From assembly GCA_963716725.1 (NCBI GenBank), contig CAVQUB010000022.1, forward strand, positions 1-64,000: 64,000 bases of DNA, given 5' to 3'. A program made the position numbers and the translations under genes. Source of the DNA: an uncultured delta proteobacterium (GTDB taxonomy: Bacteria > Myxococcota_A > Polyangia > Polyangiales > Polyangiaceae). Shown one piece after another: positions 14,422 to 49,310 of the stretch (position 1 is its first letter; the number at the start of each line of letters is the position of its first letter). Under the pieces are notes generated by a model. The model worked only from the letters and a program-made list of their open reading frames with translations, ran no database searches and was not told the origin of the DNA.

Positions 14422-14424
14422 CGT

Positions 14425-15793: not shown

Positions 15794-15807
15794 GCTGCGC
15801 GCCCTCG

Positions 15808-18586: not shown

Positions 18587-18607
18587 CTGGGCGAGTCCGC
18601 GCGCAAC

Positions 18608-23091: not shown

Positions 23092-23272
23092 GAGCGGCGC
23101 TATTGTAGGCGGGTCATGCTGGACCGACGCAAGAAGGGGAAAGCGCGGACGGGCGGCTCGGGCATCGTCCCGGAGGAGCCCGCCGTGTGGAGCGCCCTCG
23201 AGCGCGCCGGGCTGGTGGTGGTGATGGGGGAAAAACTCCGTGCAAAGCCGGGTCCTGTCCCGCGCCCGAGGC

Positions 23273-25165: not shown

Positions 25166-25280
25166 GGGCAGTCCTTTCGGGGGGCACCGCTTTTAGCGCG
25201 GCGCCGGCCAAAGGCCCAAGCCATCAGCGGGCATCTCCCGGAAATTGGGCCGAATTGTCGGCACATCGTAGGGATCGGGC

Positions 25281-27104
25281 GTGCGCTCCCCCGACGCCCC
25301 TCCGCTCCTCCGCCCGGAGCGGCACTGGCTGTACCCGCTCTTCGGGTGGTTCGCCGTCGCCATTCCGTTGCTGGTGACCTTGCTGCGCACCAGCGCGTTC
25401 ACCCAGTGGCGCGACGACTTGCCGGTGGTGCGCGCCCTCGGGCTGGTGCCCATCGGGGGTGAGGGCACGCTCTCGAGCGTGTTGATGCAGGCCGCGTCGT
25501 TCTTGCCCATCGGCGGGCGCGTGCTGCGAGCGGCGCTGCCCAGCGCGCTCTGTCTCGCGCTCGCGGCGCGTCTTGCGTACGCGCTCACCGCCCGCTTGCT
25601 CGAGCAGAACGCGTGGACTCCGCGCTTGACGCCCTTCCTCGCCCTGGCCGCCGCGCTGACCGCAACCCTCGCGCCGACCTGGCAACTCGAGGGCACCATC
25701 GCCGGTGGCGCGACCCTGGCCGCGGCGCTGGTGCTCGCCGGGCTCCTCCTTCGCCCCACCGCGGACACGCGTGACGCGCGGGTTTGGCTCGGCTTCGGTG
25801 CCTTCGTCGGTCTCACCACCATGGAGAGTCACGCCGCGGGTGCGGTGCTCTTGGTCGCGCTGGCGACTCAGATCTTCGCCATCGGGCAGGTCCCACCCAG
25901 GCGGGGCATGGCGCTAGCCGCCGGCGGAGCGCTGGCGGTCATCGCCCTGTGCGCGATCCCGATCGCGGTGCGCCCCTTCGCCTCTCGGGCCTGGGTGCAC
26001 CTCGGTTACACGCTGTCGTCCGCGAGCGTTTCGGGTATCGACACCGCGGCTTCGCGCAGCAGCATCTCGAGCACTTGGTTCGCCGAGGTCGGCGTGATCG
26101 CCTGCGTGCTGGCCCTGGGAGGCCTGGTTTGGGGCCTGATCCGGGCCCGCACGCGCTGGATAGCCGTGCCGCTTGCGGCCTTGGTCATCGCCGATGTGAT
26201 CTTCCCCGCGACCCGCGGCGGGCTGCTCTCCTTCGATCCTCTGGCGCCGGTGCGCTTGATCGCCCTCGTCGCCCTCGCCGCCTGCGCGGCCCTCGGCGTG
26301 CACAGCGCGGCGGTCGCCTTGCAGCGATCCGATCTGCCGTTCGCGCGGGCCGCCGCCGCGCTCCTCGTGGCCTTCGACTTCACCCTCGTGCTGGTCACCG
26401 GCGAGGACTCGGCCTTCCCCGCGGATCGCACCACGCAGAACGCGGCCGAGGTCTGGACCGACGAAGCCTTGGGCGCGCTGCCACCCCGCAGCCTGCTGCT
26501 CGTGCGATCCGAGACCGTCGCGTGGCGACTGTGGGCCGCGCGCGTCGCTCGCGGTGAGCGCCCGGACGTGGTGGTGGTCCCGCTTCCGCTCTTGGGTCGC
26601 GGCTCGGTGGCCAGCAAACTGATCCAGATGGAGCCCGCGCTCGCGCCGCTGATCCGCGACATGGCGGTGAGCGGGCAGCCCAGCGAGAGCGCGCTCTCGA
26701 GCCTGGCCGACGCGCGCCCGCTCTACGTCGAGCTCGATCCGAGCTGGGACAAACGCTTGGTCGATCACCTGATCCCGAAGCCCTTCTGGCTCCGCTTCGC
26801 GCCCCACGCCTACGGACGATCCGATCGCACCGCGAGCCTGGAAAAGGGCCGTCGTCCCTTCAAGCGAGTGCTCGACGCGGCGCAGGCCCCAGAGCACAAG
26901 GACCGAGCCACCCTCACCATGCTCAGCGCCCGCGCCCAGGAGCAGGCCATCGCGCTGGCGGCCCTGGGCGATCGCGAGAGCGTCAGCGAGCTTGTGGGCG
27001 ACCTTCGATCGATCGATCCGGATCATCCCTTCGCCATCGAGATGGACGCGCGCATGAAGAAGCAGGCCAAAGGTCGGATCGACGTCAGCGGCCTGCTTCA
27101 GTGA
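25281..27104 (+). CDS. Multi-pass membrane protein, possibly DUF2723/GT-C-like glycosyltransferase
   Basis: About 10 hydrophobic helices followed by a soluble domain with 'LPP..LLL' and 'RPDV.VV' segments. Confidence 0.5.
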   Translation: MRSPDAPPLLRPERHWLYPLFGWFAVAIPLLVTLLRTSAFTQWRDDLPVVRALGLVPIGGEGTLSSVLMQAASFLPIGGRVLRAALPSALCLALAARLAYALTARLLEQNAWTPRLTPFLALAAALTATLAPTWQLEGTIAGGATLAAALVLAGLLLRPTADTRDARVWLGFGAFVGLTTMESHAAGAVLLVALATQIFAIGQVPPRRGMALAAGGALAVIALCAIPIAVRPFASRAWVHLGYTLSSASVSGIDTAASRSSISSTWFAEVGVIACVLALGGLVWGLIRARTRWIAVPLAALVIADVIFPATRGGLLSFDPLAPVRLIALVALAACAALGVHSAAVALQRSDLPFARAAAALLVAFDFTLVLVTGEDSAFPADRTTQNAAEVWTDEALGALPPRSLLLVRSETVAWRLWAARVARGERPDVVVVPLPLLGRGSVASKLIQMEPALAPLIRDMAVSGQPSESALSSLADARPLYVELDPSWDKRLVDHLIPKPFWLRFAPHAYGRSDRTASLEKGRRPFKRVLDAAQAPEHKDRATLTMLSARAQEQAIALAALGDRESVSELVGDLRSIDPDHPFAIEMDARMKKQAKGRIDVSGLLQ

Positions 27105-28282
27105 GGCCCGCCCAGTCGAATGCGCCGGACCGTCACGCCGGGGAAGCGCGTGACGATCACCGCGTGCCCGCTCCACAAGAAGGCCGCCACGTGCTCGTCG
27201 AAGAACCGATAGGTCTCTGCGTCCGGCGACGCCCACATCCTGTCGTCGAGTCGGGCCAGGGGTCTCAGCGGCTCCCCGGGTCGATCGGCGAAGAATGAGT
27301 TTCTGAGCAGCAGGCGCCCCGCGCTGTCGCCCGACACCGAGAATGCGTACGCTCCTTCCTCGGGGAGTTTCGGTAGTTCGCGGGCGCTGCCGCGCTCCGG
27401 ACTTGCCACGAACATGCGGTCCTCCTCCACGACCACGACGTCGTTCCCAGCGACGCCCACGGAGCCGCGGCTTCGATTGTCCAAGTAGGACAGCCGTCCG
27501 TATCGCGGGTCGATCGGCAGCCTCACCCTGCCGAATTTGGCCAGGCGCGAGTCGAAGCCATGCAGCACCTTGGTGGGAGAGGTGGAGAACGCGTACACGC
27601 GGCCCTTCGCGATCGCGAGGCGGGGCGGTTCGTTGACGTCGCTGCAGAGATTGAGGGCGTGGGTCCGAGAGACCTCCAGGCGACCAGTGGCCGCGTCGAA
27701 GCGACGAAACTTCGTGATGGGTGGGTCACTCTCGGTGTAGGCGGCGACGAAGAAGCCATCGCCCGCGGCCAGGTGGTTGCACGCACCGGGACCGAAGTCG
27801 TGGGACGCGACACGCCGGAGCTCTTTGTCGAAGAGCACCAACTCCCCGGAGCTCCCTGCGCGCACGACGGCCGCCGCGCTGGGCGTGGCCGCGACTCTTG
27901 CCAGCTGCAGATCGCCCACGTCTACCTTCCGGACGATCGCGAAGCTCTCGAGATCGATCTCGACCAAGCCGGCGTGCGCGACGATCAGGATCGTCCCGAG
28001 GGGATGCTTGGACGAGGGCAGCTTGAAAGGCGCCGCGTCGCTGGCGAAGGCCGGCTCCTTGAACACGCTCCGGCGCACGACGGCGGGCAGATCCGGGAGC
28101 AGGTCGGGAAACTCCGTCGGCCCGGGCTTGCCGGCGCTCGACGCCGGCTTCTCGCTGGCAGCACTGCTCGCCGCAGGGGCGCGGGTCGGCGTGGCGATGG
28201 TCTGCGGGGTGCTGGGCTGGAACAACGCCAGCGTGATCATCACCAGCGCGACGGGGGCAAATCGCCAGGCGACGCTGCTCAC
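27098..28282 (-). CDS. Secreted beta-propeller-like protein (possible immunity partner)
   Basis: GTG start overlaps the upstream TGA; signal peptide, Pro/Ala/Ser linker and beta-strand-rich body. Confidence 0.55.
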   Translation of the reverse strand: MSSVAWRFAPVALVMITLALFQPSTPQTIATPTRAPAASSAASEKPASSAGKPGPTEFPDLLPDLPAVVRRSVFKEPAFASDAAPFKLPSSKHPLGTILIVAHAGLVEIDLESFAIVRKVDVGDLQLARVAATPSAAAVVRAGSSGELVLFDKELRRVASHDFGPGACNHLAAGDGFFVAAYTESDPPITKFRRFDAATGRLEVSRTHALNLCSDVNEPPRLAIAKGRVYAFSTSPTKVLHGFDSRLAKFGRVRLPIDPRYGRLSYLDNRSRGSVGVAGNDVVVVEEDRMFVASPERGSARELPKLPEEGAYAFSVSGDSAGRLLLRNSFFADRPGEPLRPLARLDDRMWASPDAETYRFFDEHVAAFLWSGHAVIVTRFPGVTVRRIRLGGPH

Positions 28283-29247
28283 GGCTCCCTCCGAGGACGG
28301 TAGACTGCGTCGAGGTCGTGCGCGTAGGGCCCCGGGCTGGTGTGGATCTGGCCCTTGGCGTCCCAGTGCGCCCACTGGCCGCTCTTCTCGTTGTGCACCC
28401 AGACGCGACGCTCGACCCCGCCGTAGTCCCCGCGCTCGCCGCCGCCCCACGACGAGTCGACCTCGAACACGCGAACGCTCGGCGTCGATCCCGCCGGCCA
28501 CCCTTCTCTCGCGAACGAGCTCGGGAGCGTCTTGCCGCGCACGACGGGGCGGTCACCATCGACTCGATGCACCGTGTTCGAGCGCACGATGACGTTGTGG
28601 TCGCGGCCCCCAGCGTCGGGCTTCAAGTGGAGCCAGTCTCCGGCCCGCGCGGTGGCGATGGGCACGGTCCGGAAGGCGTTGTTCGGCATGGTGAGCCTCG
28701 TCATGTCGAGGCCCACTTGCCCGGCCCGGACCGATCCGTCGCCCGTTCCGCGCGAGTACAACATCGCGCCCCCCACGTAGCCGCGGCAGTCGAAGCCGAT
28801 GCGGTAGTCCCACATCATGCGACGAATCGCCTGCTCCGGCGGCACCTCGCTGTAGGCGCGAAGCGCCCCGGCGTCGATCAACGCCTGCACCGTCTCGCGC
28901 ACCTGAGCCGGACTGCCACGGCTGCCGGTGGCGTGGCGGACGGACATCCCGATCTTCGTGAAGCGTGCGTCCCCCAACGCGCGACGGATCTTTCCGACCG
29001 CGGCCTCCGTCACCTGCGGCGACTCGCCGTGCAGCGTGCGGAAGTGGGGCGTGACGTGAACCTTCGCGCCGTTCACCACGTAGGGCCCCTGCATCTTCGC
29101 CATGTAGTGGTCGAGACGCCTGCCGGTTTGGTCTGCCGACTTGTGGCGCGCGAGCTCAGTAACGGCGGGCGACTGCTGGGCGGGCCTCGCGGCGCGGGGC
29201 TGGGCGGCGCGCACGTGGGCCTGGCCGGCAGCCATGGCTCGCCCCAT
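28279..29247 (-). CDS. NlpC/P60-like (papain-fold) protein
   Basis: IGFDCRGYV ... ARAGDWL ... DHNVIV matches the DCSG / (P)GDL / H order. Confidence 0.55.
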   Translation of the reverse strand: MGRAMAAGQAHVRAAQPRAARPAQQSPAVTELARHKSADQTGRRLDHYMAKMQGPYVVNGAKVHVTPHFRTLHGESPQVTEAAVGKIRRALGDARFTKIGMSVRHATGSRGSPAQVRETVQALIDAGALRAYSEVPPEQAIRRMMWDYRIGFDCRGYVGGAMLYSRGTGDGSVRAGQVGLDMTRLTMPNNAFRTVPIATARAGDWLHLKPDAGGRDHNVIVRSNTVHRVDGDRPVVRGKTLPSSFAREGWPAGSTPSVRVFEVDSSWGGGERGDYGGVERRVWVHNEKSGQWAHWDAKGQIHTSPGPYAHDLDAVYRPRREP

Positions 29248-29365
29248 CGTTTCCGGGTCGTGGGTCTCTCGCCGACGGCCCGATACTCGAATCCATGCGC
29301 GGTCATCGGTGCCGACGCGCGGCGGGTTGCTAGGTAATCGAGAGCGAGTAGAGTCCCGCCCTCCC

Positions 29366-29450
29366 GGAGGAGTGGCCGAGTGGTCTAAGGCAGCGGTTTT
29401 GAAAACCGCCGTGGGGCAACCCACCAGGGGTTCGAATCCCTTCTCCTCCG
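29366..29450 (+). tRNA. tRNA-Ser (anticodon UGA); CCA not fully encoded
   Basis: GGAGGAG/CTCCTCC acceptor stem, GCGGT-TTTGAAA-ACCGC anticodon arm, long variable arm, GGTTCGAATCC T arm, G discriminator. Confidence 0.95.
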
Positions 29451-29544
29451 CCGATTAGTTCCGTGATCTTCAATGCAAAGCGAGCCCCGTTGCGCTCGCG
29501 CTCAAGTGGTCACGAGTGGACCGAGAAGGCCCCTCGTAGACCCC

Positions 29545-29568
29545 AATCTTGGCAAGAATCTTGGCAAG
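29545..29568 (+). promoter_or_regulatory. Putative integrase arm-type sites, left (AATCTTGGCAAG x2)
   Basis: Tandem 12-mer about 90 bp inside the left att. The same ATCTTGGC core recurs at 33003-33026. Confidence 0.6.
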
Positions 29569-29662
29569 CGTGGGCCCGTCCAGTGATGAACGCCGGTGCG
29601 AGCCGATGGGGTACGGTCCCAACGTGGCGTCCGGCAGCTCACCTTGGTGATACATTGAAGCC

Positions 29663-29878
29663 GTGACCAAACGCCGCCAACAGACTGGGACGCCACGAGT
29701 CGGCGCGAAGGTGACGCTCACCTTCGGCGGCCGCGAGGTCGTCGCGACGGTCATCGAAGATCGGGGCCCGCTCGGAGTCGGTGGGCGCAAGCTCCTCCGT
29801 GTGCGTCTCGACATCGAAGAGGGCGTCGAGCCCGTCGAGTTCGAGTTGCCGGCGGCGGACGTTCGAGTGGCGGCGTAG
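29663..29878 (+). CDS. Small hypothetical protein (71 aa, beta-rich)
   Basis: GC3-rich ORF inside the island. Confidence 0.55.
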   Translation: MTKRRQQTGTPRVGAKVTLTFGGREVVATVIEDRGPLGVGGRKLLRVRLDIEEGVEPVEFELPAADVRVAA

Positions 29879-29884
29879 TCCCGG

Positions 29885-30090
29885 TCTTTGCATGGCCAGG
29901 TGGAACGCCTCGCCAATGCGCAGGCCGCTCCCGGCTACCAAGCCAACCAGCGCGGCGTGTCCAGCCGCGAGAATCTGACCGGACGCCTGGACCACGCCCC
30001 GCACCTGCTCAGGGCTCAGGGTCAGGGCGTGAGGCCGGCTCTCCGGCTCCCGCAGCTTGAGCTCCCGGAAGTCCTCGGACCGAAACGGGT
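29885..30090 (-). pseudogene. Tyrosine recombinase fragment
   Basis: LSPEQVRGVV...LVAGSGLRIGEAFHL (box I Arg); no HxxR or Tyr motif follows. Confidence 0.65.
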
Positions 30091-30232
30091 TCCCGCCTGG
30101 CTCCAGGACCACGACTGCCTGCGCCTCGTCCCGGCCGCCGACGGCTCCTTTCGCGCCAACGTCTTGCGGTTCCAGAAGGGCAGCGACGCGCGAGTCATCC
30201 TGGGCGCGGGTCAACTCACTCCCCCAGGTCTC

Positions 30233-31009
30233 ATGGCGTCCCTGGACGCGATGGTCGTGTGGGCGGGCCCCGAGCTGGACCCGTTTGCCGTTTCAATCGA
30301 CGTGCTGCTCGGGCGAGCGAAGGAGAAGGCCCATGTTCCATCTGGCGAGGAGCTCGCGGACTACGCGCGCGCCTACTACGCCGGCGCGGAGCTCTGGGAC
30401 CAGCTGTTCGAGCTCGGCGCCCCGTTCATCCGCACGACGGCGCGCGACGCCGACATGCCAGAGCTCGAGCTCGTAGCCGACAAGAAATCGGTTGCCCGAG
30501 CAATGAAGGCCGCCCGCAAGCAACTGCTCGACGTCACCACCGTGCGCCGCCGGCAGCGAATCGGTTTTCACGGCGGCAGCGACACCTTCACGATCCACTG
30601 GTGCCCCGCGCTCAAGATGTGGGTCTTGTTCCAGGATCTCGACAACCGGTTCTGGAACTGCTTCGGCATCACGCGACCGGACCCGAACAAGTCGGCCCAA
30701 ATCACCGTTCAGGTCAACCCGCCGTTCGAAGGGCTGGACCGCAAAGTGGGCGGGGCCTTTGCCCGCGACCCGCACACGGGCGACGTCTACTTCATTCACC
30801 GCGGCCGCATCGGCGGCGGCCAAAAGGGAATCGGCCCGCAGCTCTTCTGGAGCCGCTTCCGGGGTGGCGCGAACATGCGCGAGCCAGACGAGAGCGAGCC
30901 GAGTCGCGTGGTCGTGGTCGGCAAGGTCGGCAAGGTCGGTTCGCCGGAGTTCGCCCGCGATGTGGCCGGGTTCGTGCACGAGGTGGCACGGATCAAGGCG
31001 GCCGGTTGA
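30233..31009 (+). CDS. Hypothetical protein with a domain resembling N-terminal domains of putative restriction/HNH nucleases
   Basis: NRFWNCFG..P...I.VQVNPP..G..R.VGG.F..D..G..Y..HRGRIGGG..GIG motif string. The ORF-track start at 29888 overlaps the integrase remnant, so the real start is probably later. Confidence 0.55.
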   Translation: MASLDAMVVWAGPELDPFAVSIDVLLGRAKEKAHVPSGEELADYARAYYAGAELWDQLFELGAPFIRTTARDADMPELELVADKKSVARAMKAARKQLLDVTTVRRRQRIGFHGGSDTFTIHWCPALKMWVLFQDLDNRFWNCFGITRPDPNKSAQITVQVNPPFEGLDRKVGGAFARDPHTGDVYFIHRGRIGGGQKGIGPQLFWSRFRGGANMREPDESEPSRVVVVGKVGKVGSPEFARDVAGFVHEVARIKAAG

Positions 31010-31090
31010 GGGGCCGACTAGCCGAGCTCGCCACCAGCGGCGAGCTGCGGACGAGCGACGCGCACTGGCACACAGTGCGCTGCCGATCTG

Positions 31091-31513
31091 TCACGTGGGC
31101 ATTCGCTTGACTCGCATCCGTCGCGCCAGCGCCTCTCGGGCCTTCGCTTTGATGTCGGCGCTTGGCTTGTGTTTCGCGTTGTAGGCACTGCCCGATCTGC
31201 GAATGCGAATCTCGCAGTGAGCGTCATTGCCCTCGATGGGGTCATCCGCTGCGAAGAACTCGTACGGGACCGCATCGTTTCGCGGAATGGGCGGCGGCAA
31301 ATCGCCAGGCGTCACCTCCAGGATTCCATTCTCCTTCGGGCGGGAGGCCGAGAGCACATCGTCTGGCGCGGAGTACCTGCTTCTGTTGAGCGAACACGCC
31401 GGCATCTCGATGCTGTGCGCCAGCACACCAAGGTTCGGGTCGATGTCTTCCTTGGCTACGCTCCGGTACAGCGGCTCGTCCTCGGGAATCGGCTCGTCAG
31501 GGCTGCGAGCCAT
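31091..31513 (-). CDS. Putative ADP-ribosyltransferase-fold toxin (140 aa)
   Basis: E.LYR (R17), CSLNR (S41) and DP..GN.AHCEI (H99/E101) spacing; last gene of an overlapping triad. Confidence 0.55.
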   Translation of the reverse strand: MARSPDEPIPEDEPLYRSVAKEDIDPNLGVLAHSIEMPACSLNRSRYSAPDDVLSASRPKENGILEVTPGDLPPPIPRNDAVPYEFFAADDPIEGNDAHCEIRIRRSGSAYNAKHKPSADIKAKAREALARRMRVKRMPT

Positions 31514-31946
31514 GCTGCGGGCCGACAAAGGTGCGAATCTTTCGGACCGCCTCGGTGAGCTCCCCGGAGGCGACCACCCATGTTTCGGCTTCAGAGTCCG
31601 TTGAGCGGTCGCTGAGGAGCACGACCAACACGCCGTCTTCGTCGGACTCGAGCATCGCGTAGCGAGTCTTCGCAAGGAAAATGAATGCGATCCCTCCTCC
31701 GCGTGACCGAACGATGCGGTCGGGACGTTCTCCCACCTGCGCGAGCACGCGCTCGATCGTGGACGCCGCTCTAAGGGTCTCCGGGGTCACCTCGCACCGA
31801 AAGCGGTCCAGCCGGCTCGACGAGTCTTCTTCCTGGGCCGGGGTAGGCGCTCCGCGTGCGTTCATCAAGTAGCTTCCCGCGACTGTTGTCGTGACAACCG
31901 GCGCGACCCGGTCCCGCGTCGAAGTGAAAGAATTAACTAGCTGCAT
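31497..31946 (-). CDS. Hypothetical protein (149 aa), candidate antitoxin
   Basis: ATG at 31946 overlaps the upstream stop by 14 nt, and its stop overlaps the next ATG by 17 nt. Low-complexity N-terminus plus compact alpha/beta C-domain. Confidence 0.6.
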   Translation of the reverse strand: MQLVNSFTSTRDRVAPVVTTTVAGSYLMNARGAPTPAQEEDSSSRLDRFRCEVTPETLRAASTIERVLAQVGERPDRIVRSRGGGIAFIFLAKTRYAMLESDEDGVLVVLLSDRSTDSEAETWVVASGELTEAVRKIRTFVGPQHGSQP

Positions 31947-32799
31947 GACGCCTTCCCCATGTTTTGTGCGCCTCAGGCGTTGTGAACGAGGCGAATCCTC
32001 GAACAATGTGATCCCGTCCGACATCGAGAAATGCCAGGACACCATCGACTGCTTGCCCCAGGGGTCGGCCTCGAGCGGTCAAGGTGAGTTGCAGCGCGCG
32101 TTCTCTGGTGTCGCGGTAGGCGACCATGGCGCTTGCGATGTGGAGGCGTCCGATCGGCTTGCCCCCGTCTCTCATGACGAAGTGGCACGCGATGTCCGTC
32201 GACTCCGGTGCGTCGAGGAATGAGTCGCTGTACGTGCCGACCCAGGGGCGAAGCACGCTCGCGATCTGCGCGTGGCCGTCAGGGAGAGGAACCAGGTTGA
32301 CGTAGGTTACCTCACACTGATTCGGAACGACGTTTCCGAGGGACTGGGCGGCGACGAAGTCGATCAGATTGGTCAGGTCGGTCGCGAACGGTTCACGGAT
32401 GCTCCCGTACCTCGGGTACGTGGGAGACGAGTCAGCCTTCGTCCAGTTCCGAACGAACCGATCGCCCTGATACTGTTTCAGCTGCGTGTGCGACGAGTTC
32501 CGGAAGATCGCGCGCCGGAGGGGCGGGCTACCGAAAATGGTGCCAGCGTCGCTCAGCTGTTCGCCAAAGAGCTCGAACGCCGGCGCGATCGGAACGTGAT
32601 CCTGCCACTCCGGAAAGTCCTGGCGGCAGCTGTCCCAGAGCAGGGCAATGTGTCTGGTTTCGTACGACAGCGGTTCGAACTGCACGGACAGGGCGACCTC
32701 GACAACGGGCGGGTGCTCGAAGTCGGGCAGGTCGGGTGGTCGCGCAGGCACGTGTGGCAGCATAGGAGATGGGAACTCGTGTCGTGGCAAATTCTTCAA
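31933..32799 (-). CDS. TIGR04255 family protein (start may be the ATG at 32763)
   Basis: FEHPPVVEVALSVQF N-terminus; Q.DRF..NW, YPRY and EVTYVN motifs; F...TT..A...W C-terminus. Confidence 0.78.
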   Translation of the reverse strand: MKNLPRHEFPSPMLPHVPARPPDLPDFEHPPVVEVALSVQFEPLSYETRHIALLWDSCRQDFPEWQDHVPIAPAFELFGEQLSDAGTIFGSPPLRRAIFRNSSHTQLKQYQGDRFVRNWTKADSSPTYPRYGSIREPFATDLTNLIDFVAAQSLGNVVPNQCEVTYVNLVPLPDGHAQIASVLRPWVGTYSDSFLDAPESTDIACHFVMRDGGKPIGRLHIASAMVAYRDTRERALQLTLTARGRPLGQAVDGVLAFLDVGRDHIVRGFASFTTPEAHKTWGRRHAAS

Positions 32800-33002
32800 T
32801 CAATCCCGGGATGCAAGAGATGGACCATGGTGCGCGGCCTGGCTGCGTGTCCCGTGCAACAGTCAACGCAACCGCTTGCTTCCGCCCGTCTGGGCGTCCG
32901 GTCTCGACGTGGGTCGTCGACCCTTAGCAGCGCGTCATGTGCCGCTCGCCTTCGAGTCCCGGGCGGCGCGTCGGGCTGAAGCCCCTGGACGCGTCGTGAC
33001 GA

Positions 33003-33026
33003 CATCTTGGCGCCCATCTTGGCAAA
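33003..33026 (+). promoter_or_regulatory. Putative integrase arm-type sites, right (CATCTTGGCGCC CATCTTGGCAAA)
   Basis: Tandem 12-mers about 80 bp inside the right att. Confidence 0.6.
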
Positions 33027-33164
33027 TCACCCCCGCAGCGGTTTTGCACGCGGCCAACCCCGCGCAATCACGGGCGCCGCACCCCGCCTGCCAAGACTCC
33101 GCGGAGTCTTTGAAAACCGCCGTAGGGCAACCTACCAGGGGTTCGAATCCCTTCTCCTCCGCCG

Positions 33165-33815
33165 CTGCTCGCCTTGTCGCCGGCGCGCACCGCGAGCCCG
33201 CCGCCGGTGCCTCCTGGCACGAAGGTCAGCGCTACGTCTGCGGCCAGCGCTAGCAGGTTGGTGCCGAGGTTTCTTCGTTGCCGAAGACGTTGTCCGCGCC
33301 GATGCGGTACAAGTCGTAGGCTACGAAGCCGATGTCGACGATGGTGTCGAAGATGCGACCGGAAGGGTCCACCTGAGTGATGGGGTCGCCGCCGCCGTAG
33401 CTGTAGGGCAGCAGTCTGCGCGGATCGCCGATGCCCTCCTCCGGCTCGAACACGGCGACCGGATCTGGGCTGACAAAGATCCCGAGCTCCGGTCGATAGG
33501 CGCGCGCGCCAAAGTCGCTGAGGCCTGAGCCTGCATCACGTTCCTTGCCCACGAAGGACCGCGGCTCCGCGCGTCCACTGTGAAAACGCTCGGCGCCATA
33601 GGCGTGGTAGGAGACCTGGCGGACCACGTCTCCCTTCGCGCTTGTCACCGCGAGAGGACTGCCGTGGAGATCGGCGTGGAAGAAGACCGCGGACGCCGGC
33701 ACCTGCGTGATCGGCTTGCCCTTGTCTGGGTCGTCACCGCCTCCGCACGACAGAACGAGTGCGGCCGCCGCGAGGCTGCTCAGATGTTGGTTGCGCGCAC
33801 GGCCGAACGCCGCAG
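33165..33815 (-). pseudogene. Fragment of a second RHS protein (lipobox-like insert, RHS core, pre-toxin segment; toxin tip missing)
   Basis: HADLHGSP..Y.AYG..FVGKERD..SGL.DFGARAY.PELG.F.SPDP..YSY...DPITQVDPSG. After a frameshift near 33270 it reads NLGTNLLALAADVALTFVPGGTGGG up to the att repeat. Confidence 0.8.
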
Positions 33816-34203
33816 CGTCCTTGGCGTGCTTCGTCCAGTGGCCCAACGCGTTCTGAACGGGTGTCTTTGCTGACGTGGACGTCCGGAGGGGCCGTTTCGC
33901 CCCCGCCCGCGTCACGACCCCCTTCACAACCGCGCGCACGCCATCCGCACCCGCCCGCAGCAGCTTCGGAGCCGCGCGTACTGCGGCGGGCAGCGCGCGC
34001 ACCAGCGCGATGCCGTCCAGCAGGGTGGCCGCGAACAGCAGTCCCTCCGCCGCGCCCTCAGCCCCTTTGCGGTTGAGCTGCTGCACTTCGCGCAACTCGG
34101 CGCTCGAGCAACCGCGCTGGGCTGTGCAGCGCTCGAGCTCTTGGTGGGCAACGAGACCGTCCGGCTCCCGCCCATCGCGGTCCACCAAGGTGCTCGGGTT
34201 GTT
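33816..34203 (-). pseudogene. Orphan RHS cassette 2 (shared pre-toxin segment plus truncated toxin tip)
   Basis: 304-bp repeat followed by AKRPLRTSTSAKTPVQNALGHWTKH, then an in-frame jump into a different RHS. Confidence 0.7.
33900..34203 (-). repeat. 304-bp repeat, copy 3
   Basis: Near-identical to 35074-35377 and 36522-36825, with a few SNPs. Confidence 0.95.
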
Positions 34204-34337
34204 TTGTTGCCCCCCCGTGCTTGCCGGCGCTTCACGGCGGGGCGTGCTCGCTTCGTTCCGCGCGCCCCGTGCCCCCAGGCGTCGTGCTCGGCCGCCGACG
34301 CTTCAGCGCGAACTACGACGCGCGGCCTGCGCGCGCC
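34204..34337. repeat. About 133-bp multi-hairpin element preceding orphan cassette 2
   Basis: Near-identical to 35378-35510; absent from the main RHS gene. Confidence 0.9.
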
Positions 34338-34388
34338 GCAGCGTGGTCAGCGGCGCGGGAGAGCTTCACCCAAAACTCGCGCAACGAT

Positions 34389-34745
34389 CTACTCGACGTA
34401 GTCCTCGAATTCCCAATGCCCCAGCCGAGACAGCTTGACCGCAATGGCTTTCCAGTCGGGCCCATCACAGGAGTCACAGAACTCACTGATATACGTGTGT
34501 ATCGATGAATAGTCGTATTGCTTCATGACAAGATGATGCCGCGGAAAGAAGACAGGCACGCTGGACAGTTGCTCCTCTACCCAACGCGGGCTGCACACCA
34601 CGATGTCAAAAGACTCTTCGCCAGCTCCTCCCAATGGGCCAATCATCGCTTGGACGAGCACGGCAAAACGGGCCGGGTCCTCCGGCACCAACTCGGCCAG
34701 ATCGTCTGCATCAGGGCTGTGAAGCCGCTTCAGTTCTGCCTTCAC
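34389..34745 (-). CDS. Imm8 family immunity protein
   Basis: KAELK.LHSPD, MIGP...GEESFDIVVCSP.W, RHHL and LSRLGHWEFEDY motifs; GTG start overlaps the toxin TGA. Confidence 0.85.
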   Translation of the reverse strand: MKAELKRLHSPDADDLAELVPEDPARFAVLVQAMIGPLGGAGEESFDIVVCSPRWVEEQLSSVPVFFPRHHLVMKQYDYSSIHTYISEFCDSCDGPDWKAIAVKLSRLGHWEFEDYVE

Positions 34746-35377
34746 GGTGCTACCGGCGCAGACACGATATCGAGGTGTCCATTGGACGTCCATCGACCAG
34801 AAGGCACGGCGCGCTGTTCGAAGTTCGATTGAACGCGACCCAGCTTGGGTTTCCAGGACGGAGGCCGAAACTGGCGAAGTCCGTTTGTGCTGATCAACGT
34901 CTTGCCATCGCTGGCCACCCTGGCCCCTTTTCCGACCCAAGCATGCCCGAGGCGTTCCGCCGTCGCCGCGTCCGCCGCCCCCAATCCGAAGTTTCCACTT
35001 CCCTTGGCCGCGTCGCGCAGAATCCCCATCTCTCGGGCGGCAGCTTCGCTCATCTTTCGCCGGCCTCCGCTGCCCCCCGCCCGCGTCACGACCCCCTTCA
35101 CAACCGCGCGCACGCCATCCGCACCCGCCCGCAGCAGCTTCGGAGCCGCGCGTACTGCGGCGGGCAGCGCGCGCACCAGCGCGATGCCGTCCAGCAGGGT
35201 GGCCGCGAACAGCAGTCCCTCCGCCGCGCCCTCAGCCCCTTTGCGGTTGAGCTGCTGCACTTCGCGCAACTCGGCGCTCGAGCAACCGCGCTGGGCTGTG
35301 CAGCGCTCGAGCTCTTGGTGAGCACCGAGACCGTCCGGCTCCCGCCCATCGCGGTCCACCAGCGTGCTCGGGTTGTT
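34742..35377 (-). CDS. Orphan RHS cassette 1: toxin C-terminal domain, BECR-like RNase candidate
   Basis: Shared pre-toxin segment followed by GNFGLG..WVG..DG..L.S..GLRQFRPP..Q.NFE..SNGHL. Confidence 0.7.
   Translation of the reverse strand, partial: NNPSTLVDRDGREPDGLGAHQELERCTAQRGCSSAELREVQQLNRKGAEGAAEGLLFAATLLDGIALVRALPAAVRAAPKLLRAGADGVRAVVKGVVTRAGGSGGRRKMSEAAAREMGILRDAAKGSGNFGLGAADAATAERLGHAWVGKGARVASDGKTLISTNGLRQFRPPSWKPKLGRVQSNFEQRAVPSGRWTSNGHLDIVSAPVAP
35074..35377 (-). repeat. 304-bp repeat, copy 2
   Basis: Direct sequence identity with copies 1 and 3. Confidence 0.95.
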
Positions 35378-35510
35378 TTGTTGCCCCCCGTGCTTACCGG
35401 CGCTTCACGGCGGGGCGTGCTCGCTTCGCTCCGCGCGCCCCGTGCCCCCAAGCGTCGTGCTCGGCCGCCGACGCTTCAGCGCGAACTACGACGCGCGGCC
35501 TGCGCGCGCC
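35378..35510. repeat. 133-bp multi-hairpin element preceding orphan cassette 1
   Basis: Stems CGGGGCGTGC/GCGCGCCCCG and AAGCGTCG/CGACGCTT; duplicated at 34204-34337. Confidence 0.9.
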
Positions 35511-35764
35511 CCGGAGGCACCGGCGGAGGGGGCGGCGCAGATGCAATCGACGAGAAATTGCGCGCCGTCCAGCGCCGTGGCCTTGCCTGCGACAAAGTCC
35601 TCACCCAACCCGTGGCCCCTGCCTCGGGTCGCTTCGCCCAGCGCTTTCCGTTCCTCACCGAGCGGTCCGGCGAAGGGCTCTGCCACGGATGTGCCGAGAA
35701 TCAAACTTGAAGTTCCCCTCGCGCGCGCCACGCTCGCCGCGGTCGTTCTTGCACTGCGCAGCCC

Positions 35765-36190
35765 TCATTGAAGCGATCTCATGAGAGCCACGCCCCGCTC
35801 TTTGGTGGCGTGCTCAAGACGGGCTCTCGTGAAACGTTCTTGATCGCCTGATAGCTTCTCGCGCAACTCGGCGATGACGGTACCCAACCGCTCCAGCACC
35901 TGCTCCAATGGTTCAGGCTCGGTCTTCGCAAGCACATCTTCAATCGCGCGCCAACCCATCGCGATCTCAACGTCGTCAAACTGGTAAAACTTCTCCGGAC
36001 AGCATATCGACGCAACGTCAAGAAACTCCTGACCTCGGTCTCTGACTATCTTCAGGAGGATCCCGTTGACGCACAGCACCACTTCGCCGTCGCCAAACTG
36101 GGATCTCTCCTCGTAGCTGACAACTTCAACAGGCTCGATACTGGCTGCTGCCGCAAGCCTCCGGGCCCGTGCTTCCAAGGACTCGACCAC
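35765..36190 (-). CDS. Putative cognate immunity protein of the main RHS toxin (141 aa)
   Basis: AGGAGG RBS right after the toxin's corrected stop; lower GC; FGD...L.IVRDRGQ.F motif. Confidence 0.72.
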   Translation of the reverse strand: MVESLEARARRLAAAASIEPVEVVSYEERSQFGDGEVVLCVNGILLKIVRDRGQEFLDVASICCPEKFYQFDDVEIAMGWRAIEDVLAKTEPEPLEQVLERLGTVIAELREKLSGDQERFTRARLEHATKERGVALMRSLQ

Positions 36191-36200
36191 GACACTCCTC

Positions 36201-39200
36201 CTAAGGCTTTGACATACGCAGGCCGTCCTCCGCGACCTGAAACCCCTGTGATTTCAGGTACTGCAACTCTCTGGCAAAGAAGCTACCAGCGCGCGCCTGA
36301 CTCAGCCGGGGTTGCCAGGACGATGTCGTCTCCTCTGGCGATCATTCGATCAAGAAACTTCCGGTTCGCTGCCCATTGTTGCGCGGGCGTCATCCTATCC
36401 CAAACCTTCGTTGGGACGTTAAAACGACGTGCACCCAGCTCAGTGGCCTTCTCGACGTACGCAGGGAAGTGGCCAAGTACCGTCTTGCCTGGCGCCGTTC
36501 CAGCCCCGGGCCCGCCCCTCGCCCCCGCCCGCGTCACGACCCCCTTCACAACCGCGCGCACGCCATCCGCCCCCGCCCGCAGCAGCTTCGGAGCAGCGCG
36601 TACTGCGGCGGGCAGCGCGCGCACCAGCGCGATGCCGTCCAGCAGGGTGGCCGCGAACAGCAGTCCCTCCGCCGCGCCCTCAGCCCCTTTGCGGTTGAGC
36701 TGCTGCACTTCGCGCAACTCGGCGCTCGAGCAACCGCGCTGGGCTGTGCAGCGCTCGAGCTCTTGGTGAGCACCGAGACCGTCCGGCTCCCGCCCATCGC
36801 GGTCCACCAGCGTGCTCGGGTTGTTGGCCGCGTATGAATACGCCGTGTGCGAGGGCGAGAGAGCCGCCACTCGCTCGGGGCTATCGAGCCACAACGGATC
36901 CGGGCTGATGAAGCCGCCAATGTCGGGCGAGTAGTACCGCGCCTCCATCAGGTCCAAGCCGACGCTGCGGTCGCGCGGTGTGCCGGCGAAGACACGGTTT
37001 TCGTCGGGTGCTTCGTCCCAGCGGGTCTCACCGAATGAGTAGGTCGCGCTTGAACCCTGGGAGACGCCGGCGCCGTTCGTGATTTCCGTGAGGGAGCCGA
37101 CGCGGTCGGATAGCAGCAACGTGTCGGCTGCGGTCAGAGTGACCACCGTACCTTCCGCATCAGGCTTCTTGTCTGCGTCTGCGCCGGAGCACGCGACCGC
37201 CAATCCGATCGCCATGGTCGCGCCGACCGCGCGCTGTAGTCGAGACCAGGAAGCGGCCGAAATTCTGTGGAAGACGCGCTTGGCGAGCAGCACCCCAAAC
37301 AAGATCCCGAGCGCCATCCAAAGCCCGTTCAAGAAGACGCGCAGCCTCTCGACCTTCTGCGCATGCGGCTTGGATGGCGGCGGCGTCGGGACGGCTGCGC
37401 CCGCAGCCGCCACGCCATTCGTTTCCGAGAGGCGTGCGACGCGCTTTCCGTCCACCACGAGGTAGCGTACGAGTTTGCCGTCCACGACCTCCGACCAATC
37501 GTCGAGGAAGTGCGTGGTGCGTGGCGTGCCGGACGCAGCGCGCTCAACTCGGGTGACTCGTGAGCCATCGGCGGCAAAGGTATTCTCGACAGTGGCGCCG
37601 CTCTTTGTCGTGACACGGACCACGTGGTTCGCTCCGTCCCACTCCAGCGTGCGCTCGCCGTCACTCACGAGGCGGCCCCGGGCGTCGTATGCCAACGAAC
37701 GACCCTGCTGCTTCGCAACGGCGTGTGGCCGCGAGGGCTCGTAGGCAAGGCTGCCAGCATTGAGTGCCGCAACGCTGCTGGTGCGCGACAGCAGGCGACC
37801 CGCCGCAGAGTACTCCGAGTTCGAGTGGCCCCAGGCGCCTTCGCTGCGCACCAAGCGGTACAGATTGTCGTAGCTGTACCGTACGCTCCGTGAGCGTTCT
37901 TCCGGGATCCCGCTGCGAAGATCGCTCTGCTCGGCCACGTTGCCCACGGCGTCGAGTGTCCAGGCGATGTGCTGCACAACTGCGCCATCCGGCAATACGA
38001 CTTTGTGAGCATTCAGACGACGGTCCTGGTCATATCCGAACAGTTCGCGCACGCCCGTGGAGTACTCGCGCACGGTCTCCGTCTCGTCCGCATCGTGGTG
38101 GAGGGTCACGGCGTCGCGACCGAGACCTGCCAAGAGTCCACGCCCGTCGTAGCGCAGCCGCACGCTGGATCCGTCCGGGTATACGTGAAGACTCTCACGG
38201 TCTTGGGCGTCATATTGCCGGCTCGTGTCGTATCGCTTCGTGCCGATCCGAACGCTGCGCTGCGCCACTCGCCCGCGTTCGTCATAGCTGAGCACCGTCG
38301 TCCCGCTCGGATCTTCGACCCGTGCCAAGCGCCCGAGCGCATTCGTACCTTCATCGAAGAATCGGGTCACCTCGGACTGTCCATCGCCGTCCCAGTCCTC
38401 GCGCACCGTGCGCCCCGCGAGGTCGTGTTCGAAGTGACTTGCCTTCTTGTCGGGATACCGGTGTTCAACCAGGTTGTCGGACGCGTCGTAGATGTAGCTA
38501 TGCGTGCCTGCATTGGGATCCTTGGCTTCAATTCGCCTGCCTCGTCCGTCGTAAGCGTAGCTGGTCGCGTGCCCTTCCGCGTCGATACGTTTCGCGAGCT
38601 CGCCGGCGACAGTCCAAGTGTACTTCTGGGCGACCGCACTACCGCCGAGGGTGAATTCTCGGCGGACCACACGGTCCTGCCCGTCCCGAGTTTCGACGAC
38701 GGGAGTGTGTTCGTATGGCGAAGCGGGATCGGCCTGAGAGGCGTCCCAGCTCCGGGTGACCAACGGGCCGTAAGACTGCTTGGTGACGCGCCCAGCATGC
38801 GAGCGTGTGCTGACAACTCGGGTCGCAGCGTCTCGCCAAGAGTCGTCGCCAGGTGATGGGTCGGCAAGTGCCTTCGAATCCACGAAATCCACATCGACCA
38901 AGCGCGGACGCAACTTCCGCCGGGTTTCCCCGCGAGCGTCGTGCACCGCGACTTCGCTCAAGACCCACCGGCCTTCGTCGGCCTCGAACAGCGTGGCACG
39001 TGGGCGATTCGCGCCGTCATGCACTGTGATGAACCGAGTAGCTTCCTCGCCGCCACTGACGATGCGGTTGGTCGTGATCACGCGGGAAATCGGCGCGGCG
39101 AGCTCGTAGGCGTAGCCGACGGTAGGGCGCTTGGCCGAGTCTCCTGGCCGGGCGATCCCCGTGATTCGCCCGAGAGAGTCATATTGATAGGCAGTTGCGA

Positions 39201-41420: not shown

Positions 41421-41572
41421 TGAGAGGCCCTATCGGGCTCAGCGTCAGGCGATTGCGTGATTTCTCGCTACGTGATCGCGAGTCGCGACGCGCTCCATCG
41501 AGCTCGGAATAGTCCGCAACCCGCCTGATGACCGACCCGAGGGGGAGGGGAAATCACTCTGGAGGTCCGTCA

Positions 41573-43171: not shown

Positions 43172-43197
43172 CTGCGCGCTGTGGAGGAGCAAAGAAG

Positions 43198-46834: not shown

Positions 46835-46902
46835 TTGGGAGCCTCCGCATGTCCCAGCCACAAAACCCTCAACTCGATGCGAGAGCTGCCCGATGCGTGC
46901 GC

Positions 46903-48390: not shown

Positions 48391-48431
48391 GTGCGTGTGC
48401 GTGGACGGGCGGATCCGCCGCCCTGAAGCCA

Positions 48432-48464
48432 CGGATCGCGGTGCGCTTTCGAGACCGCGATCCG
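48432..48464. terminator. 11-bp-stem hairpin between convergent genes
   Basis: CGGATCGCGGT / ACCGCGATCCG. Confidence 0.55.
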
Positions 48465-49299: not shown

Positions 49300-49310
49300 C
49301 CGGCTGCGCG

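What the first reader, a model, noticed from the sequence alone, without database searches (positions are those of the whole stretch)
31091..32799. Candidate anti-phage toxin-antitoxin-sensor triad: TIGR04255 + small protein + ADP-ribosyltransferase-like gene on a tRNA island
Seen: three minus-strand genes overlap by 14 and 17 nt, so they are probably translationally coupled, and they are the main intact cargo of a tRNA-Ser island. The last gene (140 aa) has LYR(17)...CS(41)LNR...N.AH(99)CE(101)I, the spacing expected of an R-S-type ART fold. The middle gene has a low-complexity N-terminal ~45 aa plus a small folded domain. The first gene has TIGR04255-type motifs. Known: CmdTAC is an anti-phage toxin-antitoxin-chaperone system (mRNA-modifying ART, antitoxin, SecB-like sensor), and tRNA islands are defence hotspots. 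Inference: this is an analogous system in a myxobacterium, with TIGR04255 as the stabilising or phage-sensing component and the disordered tail as its addiction/degron segment. I cannot confirm from here whether this variant is already described.
Basis: partly seen in the sequence, partly recalled or inferred. Interest (0 to 1): 0.85.

Follow-up and report, generated by a model that had tools for sequence, protein, structure and literature searches.

The report
Conserved three-gene toxin-antitoxin-like cassette
Three tightly overlapping genes of unknown function travel together as a mobile cassette in several bacteria and look like a new three-part toxin-antitoxin or defence module, but the proposed ADP-ribosyltransferase identity of the third gene could not be confirmed.

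Summary
Three minus-strand genes (g1 31933-32799, g2 31497-31946, g3 31091-31513) overlap by 14 and 17 nt. They lie in a 3.7-kb tRNA-Ser island bounded by a 56-nt direct repeat. g1 is a TIGR04255 protein (42.3 bits, cut-off 30). g2 and g3 match nothing in Pfam, NCBIfam, PADLOC or PHROGs.

The triad is a conserved unit. It keeps the same order in 3 of 3 Myxococcota genome loci and on a Mycobacterium plasmid. Its neighbours differ in every locus, and the 14-nt g1/g2 overlap is kept in 5 of 5 loci.

g3 belongs to a large unnamed family of at least 835 clusters. E13, S41, R44, H99 and E101 are near-invariant and R17 and R103 are strongly conserved (118 of 134 each).

A confident g3 model (pLDDT 95.6) matches no solved or viral structure at E <= 0.001. 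The only ART-related hits are weak Tpt1 matches. None of the CmdTAC defining features is met.

Best reading: a new three-part toxin-antitoxin-like conflict module. Toxicity, binding and defence are all untested.

The parts
31933..32799 (-). g1, a TIGR04255 family protein. It is 288 aa from the TTG at 32799, or more likely 276 aa from the ATG at 32763.
   Evidence: NCBIfam TIGR04255 scores 42.3 bits against a cut-off of 30 over model positions 2-252 of 252. There are 859 homologues and 31 invariant columns in 50 sequences. The Atlas returns only TIGR04255-named or unnamed clusters, by features and by structure. There is no Pfam, PADLOC, PHROGs or PDB relative.
31497..31946 (-). g2, a 149-aa two-part protein and candidate neutraliser or adaptor. 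It has a conserved but unstructured N-terminal segment (1-27), a variable linker, and a folded alpha-beta5-alpha C-terminal domain (about 45-145).
   Evidence: 26 homologues. Alignment A2 shows invariant F7, V14, T20, V22 and L27 and a strongly conserved C-domain. The AF2 model has pLDDT 76, with 1-41 below 50 and about 50-140 above 89. No family, PDB or Foldseek match. It overlaps g1 by 14 nt, with a GGGGAAGG stretch 5 nt upstream of its ATG.
31091..31513 (-). g3, a 140-aa enzyme-like protein and candidate toxin or effector. Conserved E13-x-L-[YF]-R17 lies at strand 1, S41-x-[ND]-R44 on strand 2, and P92...N96-x-A-H99-x-E101-x-R103 on a hairpin.
   Evidence: 31 close homologues. 835 clusters at E <= 0.001 in the representative library. 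The AF2 model has pLDDT 95.6 and pTM 0.88. No significant fold, family or PDB match. It overlaps g2 by 17 nt.
29366..29452 (+). tRNA-Ser (anticodon tga), the left end of the island.
   Evidence: ARAGORN. Rfam tRNA at 59.4 bits.
29398..29453 (+). Left copy of the 56-nt direct repeat (the 3' half of the tRNA).
   Evidence: the repeat finder family D4.
33109..33164 (+). Right copy of the 56-nt direct repeat (96% identical), the right end of the roughly 3.7-kb island.
   Evidence: the repeat finder family D4. The island interior is 3655 nt at GC 0.652.

Best explanation
The three genes form a self-contained, horizontally mobile operon that most likely works as a three-part toxin-antitoxin-like conflict module.

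Proposed mechanism (all inferred):
- g3 is the effector. It is a small enzyme whose conserved Glu, Arg, Ser, Arg, His, Glu and Arg residues lie at or on three beta-strands. It would act on a nucleotide-containing substrate, either NAD+ or a phosphodiester in RNA.
- g2 is its cognate neutraliser. Its folded C-terminal domain would hold g3. Its conserved but unstructured N-terminal segment would be the handle by which g1 controls it.
- g1 (TIGR04255) is the upstream controlling component: a sensor, stabiliser or modifier of g2.

Shown: gene structure, translational-coupling geometry, co-conservation of the three genes, varied genomic contexts, and an enzyme-like conservation pattern.

Inferred: toxicity of g3, neutralisation by g2, the role of g1, and any link to phage.
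For: 1. Conserved unit. g1-g2-g3 appear in the same order in all 4 other loci examined: L001-L003 from Myxococcota MAGs and L004 on a Mycobacterium paragordonae plasmid next to a MobF relaxase. The g1/g2 overlap is 14 nt in 5 of 5 loci. The g2/g3 junction is a 17, 17, 17 or 4 nt overlap, or abutting.
2. Parallel divergence. Identity to the window is 60/56/60% in L002, 57/53/64% in L001 and 34/38/45% in L003 for g1/g2/g3.
3. Unrelated neighbours in each locus: SCP2 and TolB/TonB/ExbD; a PLD-like nuclease and a GNAT; tRNA-Arg; a relaxase. ORF373 and ORF71 of the window island are absent from the other loci.
4. Signs of mobility:
- a tRNA-Ser island with a 56-nt repeat;
- triad GC of 0.62-0.64 against 0.66-0.70 in the flanks;
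- in L003, the triad sits in a 0.60-0.63 GC stretch that begins just upstream of tRNA-Arg, against 0.70-0.78 before it.
5. g3 conservation in 134 representatives: E13 132, S41 133, R44 133, H99 133, E101 127, R17 118, R103 118. These residues lie at or on strands 15-19, 39-44 and 99-106 of a pLDDT-95.6 model.
6. The small-then-small gene order (g2 before g3) with overlapping stop and start codons is the usual antitoxin-toxin layout. This point is established knowledge and was recalled.
7. Indirect: identical longest-contig lengths recur between the homologue lists. g3 and g2 share 8, g3 and g1 share 7, and g2 and g1 share 7. This suggests further co-occurrence.
Against: - No toxin, antitoxin or defence family is hit by any of the three proteins in Pfam, NCBIfam, PADLOC 2.0.0 or PHROGs.
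- g2 has no recognisable DNA-binding domain.
- There is no basic-toxin / acidic-antitoxin charge pattern. The pI values are 5.9 for g3, 5.5 for g2 and 6.3 for g1.
- Only weak defence context was found. A DrmC/DpdK-like PLD gene lies next to the triad in L002 (E 1.4e-6), and there is one marginal mad2 hit in L003. L001 sits among housekeeping genes.
- g1 has 31 invariant columns in 50 sequences. That fits an enzyme or ligand binder better than a passive chaperone, so the assignment of roles may be wrong.
- The plasmid copy of g3 lacks E101 and R103. Those two residues are therefore not universal.
- Only 5 loci could be examined.
Confidence: 0.42

Rival explanations
1. g3 is an R-S-E-type ADP-ribosyltransferase toxin. 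The triad is a CmdTAC-like toxin-antitoxin-chaperone defence system, with TIGR04255 in the chaperone/sensor role and the unstructured tail of g2 as the degron.
For: - R17, S41 and H99-x-E101 are conserved and lie on successive strands, in the order R, S, E.
- The highest-probability Foldseek hit among the 50 PDB rows printed (and second-highest in BFVD) is a Tpt1/KptA-type RNA 2'-phosphotransferase, which belongs to the ART superfamily. The PDB hit is 8tfi (probability 0.20, TMq 0.36). The BFVD hit is S5WKF0 (probability 0.13, TMq 0.30).
- The published evidence for CmdT was itself a loose Foldseek fit, with an r.m.s.d. of 6.93 A (passage of PMC11618068).
Against: - There are 0 Foldseek matches at E <= 0.001 in PDB and in BFVD, and all TM scores are below 0.4.
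- Of 134 family members, 0 hit a Pfam ART family above noise. One singleton hit to ADPRTs_Tse2 at E 0.09 sits among 12 singleton families.
- hhalign against KptA gave probability 0.1%.
- R44 (133 of 134) is better conserved than R17 (118 of 134). The strand-2 motif is S-x-[ND]-R and not S-T-S.
- The plasmid homologue lacks E101.
- g1 is not SecB-like. The unstructured part of g2 is N-terminal and not C-terminal. CmdT uses H-Y-[EDQ].
Confidence: 0.15
2. The roles are the other way round. The TIGR04255 protein g1 is the effector or enzyme of the module, and g2 and g3 are its regulators. For example, g3 could be an enzymatic antitoxin or modifier, as in systems where the antitoxin is an enzyme.
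For: - g1 is the most strongly constrained of the three. It has 31 invariant and 42 nearly invariant columns in 50 sequences down to 42% identity, many of them polar: Q40, D113, R114, N118, R130, Q161, C162, R218, R243, H278, R283.
- g1 is the component with the recognisable widespread family.
- The g1/g2 overlap of 14 nt is the most conserved junction, kept in 5 of 5 loci.
Against: - g1 has no similarity to any known toxin or enzyme family or solved structure.
- g3 shows an equally enzyme-like conservation pattern.
- First position in the operon is more usual for a regulator in known three-gene systems (recalled).
Confidence: 0.15
3. The triad is not a conflict system. It is a small accessory operon for an ordinary cellular task, such as modification or salvage of a small molecule, that happens to be mobile.
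For: - There is no hit to any defence or toxin-antitoxin model.
- L001 lies among housekeeping genes.
- All three proteins are mildly acidic and cytoplasmic in appearance.
Against: - The neighbourhoods vary between loci, and no metabolic partner gene is conserved.
- The triad occurs in a tRNA island and on a plasmid.
- One component has a long unstructured conserved segment. That is unusual for a metabolic operon.
Confidence: 0.18

Closest known systems
CmdTAC, and toxin-antitoxin-chaperone (TAC) systems in general
   Same: Both are three co-directional, tightly packed genes. In both, one protein has a long unstructured conserved segment. Both are mobile and sporadic in distribution. The proposed logic is the same: a third protein controls the stability or availability of a neutraliser.
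   Different: - CmdT is a diphtheria-toxin-type ART with an H-Y-[EDQ] triad. CmdA has N-terminal helices and a C-terminal unstructured tail. CmdC is SecB-like (passages of PMC11618068).
- Here the large protein is TIGR04255 with no SecB match.
- The unstructured segment of g2 is N-terminal.
- g3 has a different conserved-residue set and no ART match.
- The gene order is large-small-small. The toxin-antitoxin-chaperone order of TAC systems is recalled.
Three-gene toxin-antitoxin operons with the third component encoded first (omega-epsilon-zeta; paaR2-paaA2-parE2). Recalled from memory and not tested here.
   Same: The order is controller, then neutraliser, then toxin, with overlapping or abutting reading frames.
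   Different: In those systems the first gene encodes a small DNA-binding repressor. g1 is a 276-288 aa protein with no detectable DNA-binding domain. It has an enzyme-like level of invariance. Neither g2 nor g3 matches epsilon/zeta or PaaA2/ParE families.
R-S-E ADP-ribosyltransferases and Tpt1/KptA
   Same: A conserved Arg lies on strand 1, a Ser on strand 2 and a Glu at the start of a later strand. Tpt1-type proteins are the best-probability Foldseek hit among the PDB rows printed and a close second in BFVD.
   Different: The fold match is not significant: E 1.5 and 0.71, TM 0.36 and 0.30. There is no S-T-S motif. H-x-E stands in place of [QE]-x-E. There is no sequence-profile similarity to KptA or to any Pfam ART family.
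TIGR04255 family (NCBIfam)
   Same: g1 and its counterparts in all four other loci pass the curated cut-off. The scores are 42.3, 34.3, 40.7 and 69.7 bits, and the plasmid copy is annotated as TIGR04255 in its RefSeq record.
   Different: The family has no assigned function. A search of the held literature for 'TIGR04255' and for 'IPR026349' found 0 papers. The link to two specific downstream genes is therefore not in print under those names.

Membership tests
TIGR04255 family (g1) | Score at or above the curated NCBIfam cut-off of 30 bits over the full model | tested here: met
   42.3 bits, E 7.4e-11, model positions 2-252 of 252. The Atlas nearest clusters by features are all named TIGR04255; by structure two of the three rows shown are, and one is an unnamed hypothetical-protein cluster.
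CmdTAC / TAC systems | SecB-like chaperone component | tested here: not met
   None of the three proteins gives a Pfam or NCBIfam SecB hit at E <= 1. The large protein is TIGR04255.
CmdTAC / TAC systems | Toxin with the H-Y-[EDQ] triad of diphtheria-toxin-type ARTs (CmdT; passage of PMC11618068) | tested here: not met
   The near-invariant set in g3 is E13, S41, R44, H99 and E101, with R17 and R103 strongly conserved. The only invariant His is two residues before the Glu, and no invariant Tyr lies between them.
CmdTAC / TAC systems | Antitoxin with a C-terminal unstructured chaperone-addiction segment | tested here: not met
   The low-confidence segment of g2 is N-terminal (residues 1-41). The C-terminus is a confident folded domain.
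CmdTAC / TAC systems | Match to a defence-system model | tested here: not met
   PADLOC-DB 2.0.0 gives 0 families at E <= 1 for all three proteins and 0 at E <= 0.01 for five of the six triad homologues scanned (g1 of L001 and L004, g2 and g3 of L003, g3 of L004; L002's triad genes and g2/g3 of L001 were not scanned). The g2-position protein of L004 has two marginal PDC-M32A hits at E 0.0037 and 0.0063. DefenseFinder models were not available.
R-S-E ADP-ribosyltransferases | ART fold | tested here: inconclusive
R-S-E ADP-ribosyltransferases | Arg on strand 1, S-T-S on strand 2, [QE]-x-E at the start of the catalytic strand (motifs recalled) | tested here: inconclusive
   R17 is kept in 118 of 134 and lies on strand 15-19. 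S41 is kept in 133 of 134 but within S-x-[ND]-R. H99-x-E101 (133 and 127 of 134) opens strand 99-106. E101 is absent in the plasmid homologue.
R-S-E ADP-ribosyltransferases | Sequence-profile similarity to a known ART family | tested here: not met
   Of 134 members, 0 hit above noise in Pfam. PDB profile searches with A1 and A5 found nothing relevant. hhalign against E. coli KptA gave probability 0.1%.
R-S-E ADP-ribosyltransferases | NAD+ binding and ADP-ribose transfer | not testable with these tools
   This needs biochemistry.
Type II toxin-antitoxin modules (generic) | Adjacent co-directional small genes with overlapping or abutting frames, inherited together | tested here: met
   g2 and g3 overlap by 17 nt in the window, L001 and L002, abut in L003, and overlap by 4 nt in L004. 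They are conserved together in 4 of 4 other loci.
Type II toxin-antitoxin modules (generic) | Toxicity of one product, neutralised by direct binding of the other | not testable with these tools
   No experiment was possible. The one complex-prediction job returned no verdict (see Tried and rejected).
Type II toxin-antitoxin modules (generic) | Antitoxin with a DNA-binding domain for autoregulation (usual, not universal; recalled) | tested here: not met
   g2 has no Pfam or NCBIfam domain at E <= 1.

The most novel reading that the evidence does not exclude
The triad founds a previously undescribed class of three-part abortive-infection or addiction system that is widespread across phyla. g3 would be the first member of a new toxin enzyme family with no structural relative among solved structures (at least 835 clusters at 50% identity). 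TIGR04255 would be a new kind of sensor or controller acting through the unstructured N-terminal handle of g2.
Probability: 0.3. Interest if true: 0.8.

Novelty: new variant of a known kind. Interest (0 to 1): 0.55.

Why it matters
- It would give a first functional context to TIGR04255. That family is named and widespread but has no assigned function, and a search of the held literature found no paper mentioning it.
- It would also give context to two unnamed partner families. One of them has more than 800 sequence clusters and a confidently predicted fold without a match in PDB or BFVD.
- If g3 is a toxin, its chemistry may be new.
- If the operon defends against phage, it would add a three-part architecture that differs from the SecB-based TAC systems.
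- The cassette is only 1.7 kb, has clear candidate catalytic residues and is easy to test in laboratory strains.

Tried and rejected
1. Complex prediction. I sent three chains (g1, g3, g2) with g2 as the partner. The tool's verdict was 'no answer'.
- The complex scored 0.84 in all three runs.
- The two controls with the partner replaced scored 0.00 and 0.00.
- The control with g1 replaced by an unrelated protein scored 0.86, so the mark was not reached.

2. Foldseek. The g3 model against PDB and BFVD, and the g2 model against PDB, gave 0 matches at E <= 0.001 in each search.

3. Family scans of g2 and g3 against Pfam, NCBIfam, PADLOC and PHROGs found nothing.

4. PDB sequence and profile searches found only chance-level hits. 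I used g3, g1, ORF373 and the profiles A1, A5, A2 and A6.

5. hhalign of the g3 family against E. coli KptA gave probability 0.1%. A single-sequence template makes this a weak test.

6. tblastn searches:
- g1 and g3 against phages gave no match.
- g3 against plasmids gave no match.
- g1 against plasmids gave one record.
- The plasmid's own g1-like and g3-like proteins against plasmids found only themselves.

7. Charge complementarity between g3 and g2 was absent.

8. hhalign of the two halves of g1 detected no internal duplication.

9. I first took ORF 29639..30214 (minus strand) for an integrase remnant and rejected that. GC1 exceeds GC3, it overlaps better-coding ORFs, and it has no Pfam hit.

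10. A direct repeat of tRNA-Arg in L003 was not found within the fetched stretch.

12. Literature searches found 0 papers for 'TIGR04255' and 0 for 'IPR026349'. A search for 'tripartite toxin-antitoxin' or 'phage defence' listed no system of this make-up among the 15 titles and abstracts shown, of 1,101 papers holding a term.

Not checked: AlphaFold DB, DefenseFinder, and the metagenome and viral contig collections, which were closed. Supplements of the defence-discovery papers were also not checked.
Full report
**What is there**

On the minus strand of the window lie three ORFs:
- g1, 31933..32799, 288 aa from a TTG start
- g2, 31497..31946, 149 aa
- g3, 31091..31513, 140 aa

They overlap by 14 and 17 nt. 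Each shows the codon-position GC pattern of a real gene in a GC-rich genome: GC3 0.74-0.76 > GC1 0.63-0.65 > GC2 0.47-0.52. The many plus-strand ORFs over the same DNA are the usual by-product of high GC.

The g1 start is probably the ATG at 32763, giving 276 aa. A 100%-identical public protein has that length, and the family consensus begins about ten residues before the DLPDF motif.

**The island**

A tRNA-Ser(tga) lies at 29366..29452. Its 3' half (29398..29453) is repeated at 33109..33164 with 96% identity over 56 nt. This bounds an island of about 3.7 kb.

The island also holds two other coding-like ORFs on the plus strand, 29663..29878 and 29888..31009. Neither has a family match. No integrase was recognisable.

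**The three proteins**

g1:
- It passes the curated TIGR04255 model at 42.3 bits against a cut-off of 30.
- It has 859 homologues at E <= 0.001 among 1569 candidates.
- In an alignment of the window protein with 49 of the 120 listed homologues, 31 columns are invariant and 42 nearly so, many of them polar.
- It has no Pfam, PADLOC, PHROGs or PDB relative.
- No internal duplication was detectable.
- The Atlas finds only TIGR04255-named or unnamed clusters, by features and by structure.

g2:
- It has 26 homologues. I aligned 25 of them with the window protein, leaving out one near-identical sequence.
- The AlphaFold2 model (mean pLDDT 76) has residues 1-41 below 50 and a confident alpha-beta5-alpha domain from about 45 to 145.
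- Residues 1-27 still carry invariant positions F7, V14, T20, V22 and L27. This is a conserved linear segment followed by a variable linker, and not plain low complexity.
- In L003 this N-terminal part is longer and different. Only the C-domain aligns there.
- There is no family, PDB or Foldseek match.

g3:
- It has 31 close homologues. I aligned 28 of them, leaving out one near-identical sequence and two sequences from very short contigs, one of them visibly truncated at 121 aa.
- A profile search of 1.84 billion representatives found 835 clusters at E <= 0.001, 349 at 1e-10 and 22 at 1e-30. Almost all are stand-alone proteins of 130-180 aa.
- I aligned 133 of the 150 best, dropping 17 fragments or partial matches, together with the window protein.
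- The conservation counts out of 134 are: E13 132, L15 128, R17 118, S41 133, R44 133, P73 128, P92 132, H99 133, E101 127, R103 118.
- The model is confident (pLDDT 95.6, pTM 0.88). It places E13 just before, and L15 and R17 on, strand 15-19, and the other conserved residues on strands 39-44 and 99-106.

**Is g3 an ADP-ribosyltransferase?**

No test confirmed the fold.
- Foldseek gave 0 matches at E <= 0.001 in PDB and 0 in BFVD, and all TM scores are below 0.4.
- The hit with the highest probability among the 50 PDB rows printed, and the second-highest in BFVD, is a Tpt1/KptA-type RNA 2'-phosphotransferase, a member of the ART superfamily. The PDB hit is 8tfi (probability 0.20, TMq 0.36). 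The BFVD hit is S5WKF0 (probability 0.13, TMq 0.30). This is a lead only.
- hhalign of the family against E. coli KptA gave probability 0.1%.
- None of 134 members hits a Pfam ART family above noise. One ADPRTs_Tse2 hit at E 0.09 sits among 12 singleton families.
- PDB profile searches found nothing relevant.
- R44 is better conserved than R17. The strand-2 motif is S-x-[ND]-R and not S-T-S.
- The Mycobacterium homologue lacks E101 and R103.

A Glu/His/Arg set on one sheet face suits a metal-independent RNase as well as it suits an NAD+-using enzyme. That comparison is an inference from recalled knowledge of microbial RNases. I put the ART reading at about 0.15-0.2.

**Is the triad a unit?**

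Yes. All three are from Myxococcota MAGs.
- In all three, a TIGR04255 gene (34.3, 40.7 and 69.7 bits) and a g2 homologue precede the g3 homologue, in the same order.
- tblastn with g1 against 72,556 plasmids found one record, a Mycobacterium paragordonae plasmid. There a TIGR04255 gene next to a MobF relaxase is followed by two hypothetical genes of 180 and 142 aa.
- The 142-aa protein is a probable remote homologue of g3. hhalign against the broad profile gave probability 71%, E 3.7e-5, over 122 columns. The 180-aa protein shows no similarity to g2.
- The g1/g2 overlap is 14 nt in 5 of 5 loci. The g2/g3 junction is a 17, 17, 17 or 4 nt overlap, or abutting.
- The three proteins diverge in parallel: 60/56/60%, 57/53/64% and 34/38/45% identity.
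- The neighbours differ in each locus: SCP2 and TolB/TonB/ExbD in L001; a PLD-like nuclease and a GNAT in L002; tRNA-Arg directly upstream and a drop in GC in L003; a relaxase in L004.
- ORF373 and ORF71 of the window island occur in none of the other loci.
- Identical longest-contig lengths recur between the three homologue lists: 8, 7 and 7 coincidences. This hints at more co-occurrence but is indirect.

**How it most likely works**

The layout fits a selfish or conflict module of the toxin-antitoxin type. It is mobile and sporadic. It is tightly coupled. It has a small enzyme-like last gene preceded by a small protein with a folded domain plus a conserved unstructured handle, and a larger, highly constrained first gene.

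I propose that g3 is the effector enzyme, that g2 neutralises it with its C-domain, and that g1 acts on g2 through the N-terminal handle. Every functional step here is inferred.

Several results count against this reading:
- No defence or toxin-antitoxin model is hit.
- g2 has no DNA-binding domain.
- There is no charge complementarity between g3 and g2.
- The defence context is weak at best. It consists of a DrmC/DpdK-like PLD gene in L002 at E 1.4e-6 and a marginal mad2 hit in L003.
- The strong invariance of g1 fits an enzyme or ligand binder better than a chaperone. The roles could be reversed, or the operon could serve an ordinary function.

**Comparison with known systems**

CmdTAC, as described in passages of PMC11618068, has a diphtheria-toxin-type ART with an H-Y-[EDQ] triad, an antitoxin with a C-terminal unstructured tail and a SecB-like chaperone. 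None of these defining features is met here. The triad may work like a TAC system, but it is not a member.

The gene order recalls omega-epsilon-zeta and paaR2-paaA2-parE2 (recalled and not tested). g1 is not a small repressor, however.

Searches of the held literature for 'TIGR04255' and 'IPR026349' found 0 papers.

**What stayed unchecked**

The one complex-prediction job gave no verdict and is reported only under Tried and rejected.

**Verdict**

This is a real, conserved, mobile three-gene cassette built from one named family of unknown function and two unnamed families. It is most likely a new variant of a three-part toxin-antitoxin-like system. Interest is moderate to good at 0.55. It is a clean, testable candidate with no functional evidence yet.

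Noticed in passing
window 1..~13700 versus ~13750..64000: The window is composite. The first 13.7 kb has GC 0.34-0.41 and carries housekeeping genes: asparaginase II, GcvP, an ABC transporter and the NAD-dependent DNA ligase LigA. The rest has GC 0.64-0.70. GC jumps from about 0.30 to about 0.65 within roughly 100-200 nt near 13650-13750. ORF 12949..14421 (minus strand) spans the jump as an unlikely MlaE + GGDEF fusion. This looks like two unrelated sequences joined, either by contig concatenation or as an assembly chimera. It does not look like an island.
   Followed up: partly
window 33250..41334 (minus strand): An Rhs/YD-repeat polymorphic toxin locus lies immediately to the right of the island. 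It has a 1683-aa protein (36283..41334) with RHS_repeat, TcdB_toxin_midN and FG-GAP domains. It also has orphan C-terminal tips (33250..34188 and 34742..35359) marked by three copies of a 300-nt repeat at 98-99% identity (33900-34199, 35074-35373, 36522-36821). An Imm8 immunity gene lies at 34389..34940.
   Followed up: partly
window 29888..31009 (+) and 29663..29878 (+): Two further island ORFs have a good coding signal (GC3 0.84 and 0.81). Neither matches Pfam or NCBIfam above chance (only an E 0.18 DUF4772 hit for 29663..29878), and neither matches PADLOC. The 373-aa ORF also has no PHROGs or PDB match. It has only partial matches (21-31% of its length, about 31% identity) to hypothetical proteins on two Bosea plasmids. 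Neither ORF accompanies the triad in the other loci.
   Followed up: partly
window 29454..33108: The island bounded by the tRNA-Ser repeat has no recognisable integrase. It is either a decayed element or one mobilised in trans.
   Followed up: partly
L002 6490..7062 (+): A 190-aa PLD-like protein starts 49 nt after the stop of the g3 homologue. It matches Pfam PLDc_2 at E 2.8e-8 and the PADLOC DrmC and DpdK models at E 1.4e-6 and 8.1e-6. It could be an unrelated defence-type neighbour or a locus-specific fourth gene.
   Followed up: no
L003 ~3600..12435; tRNA-Arg at 4310..4384: GC drops from 0.70-0.78 to 0.60-0.65 just upstream of a tRNA-Arg, and the triad begins 254 nt after that tRNA. This is a second tRNA-associated island carrying the cassette. 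No flanking repeat was found in the fetched stretch.
   Followed up: partly
L004 4983..6722 (Mycobacterium paragordonae plasmid NZ_CP025547.1): An actinobacterial version of the triad sits next to a MobF relaxase. Its third protein keeps E13, L15, Y16, R17, S41, R44, A98 and H99 of the g3 family. It has Leu and Val in place of E101 and R103. Its middle protein is unrelated in sequence to g2.
   Followed up: partly
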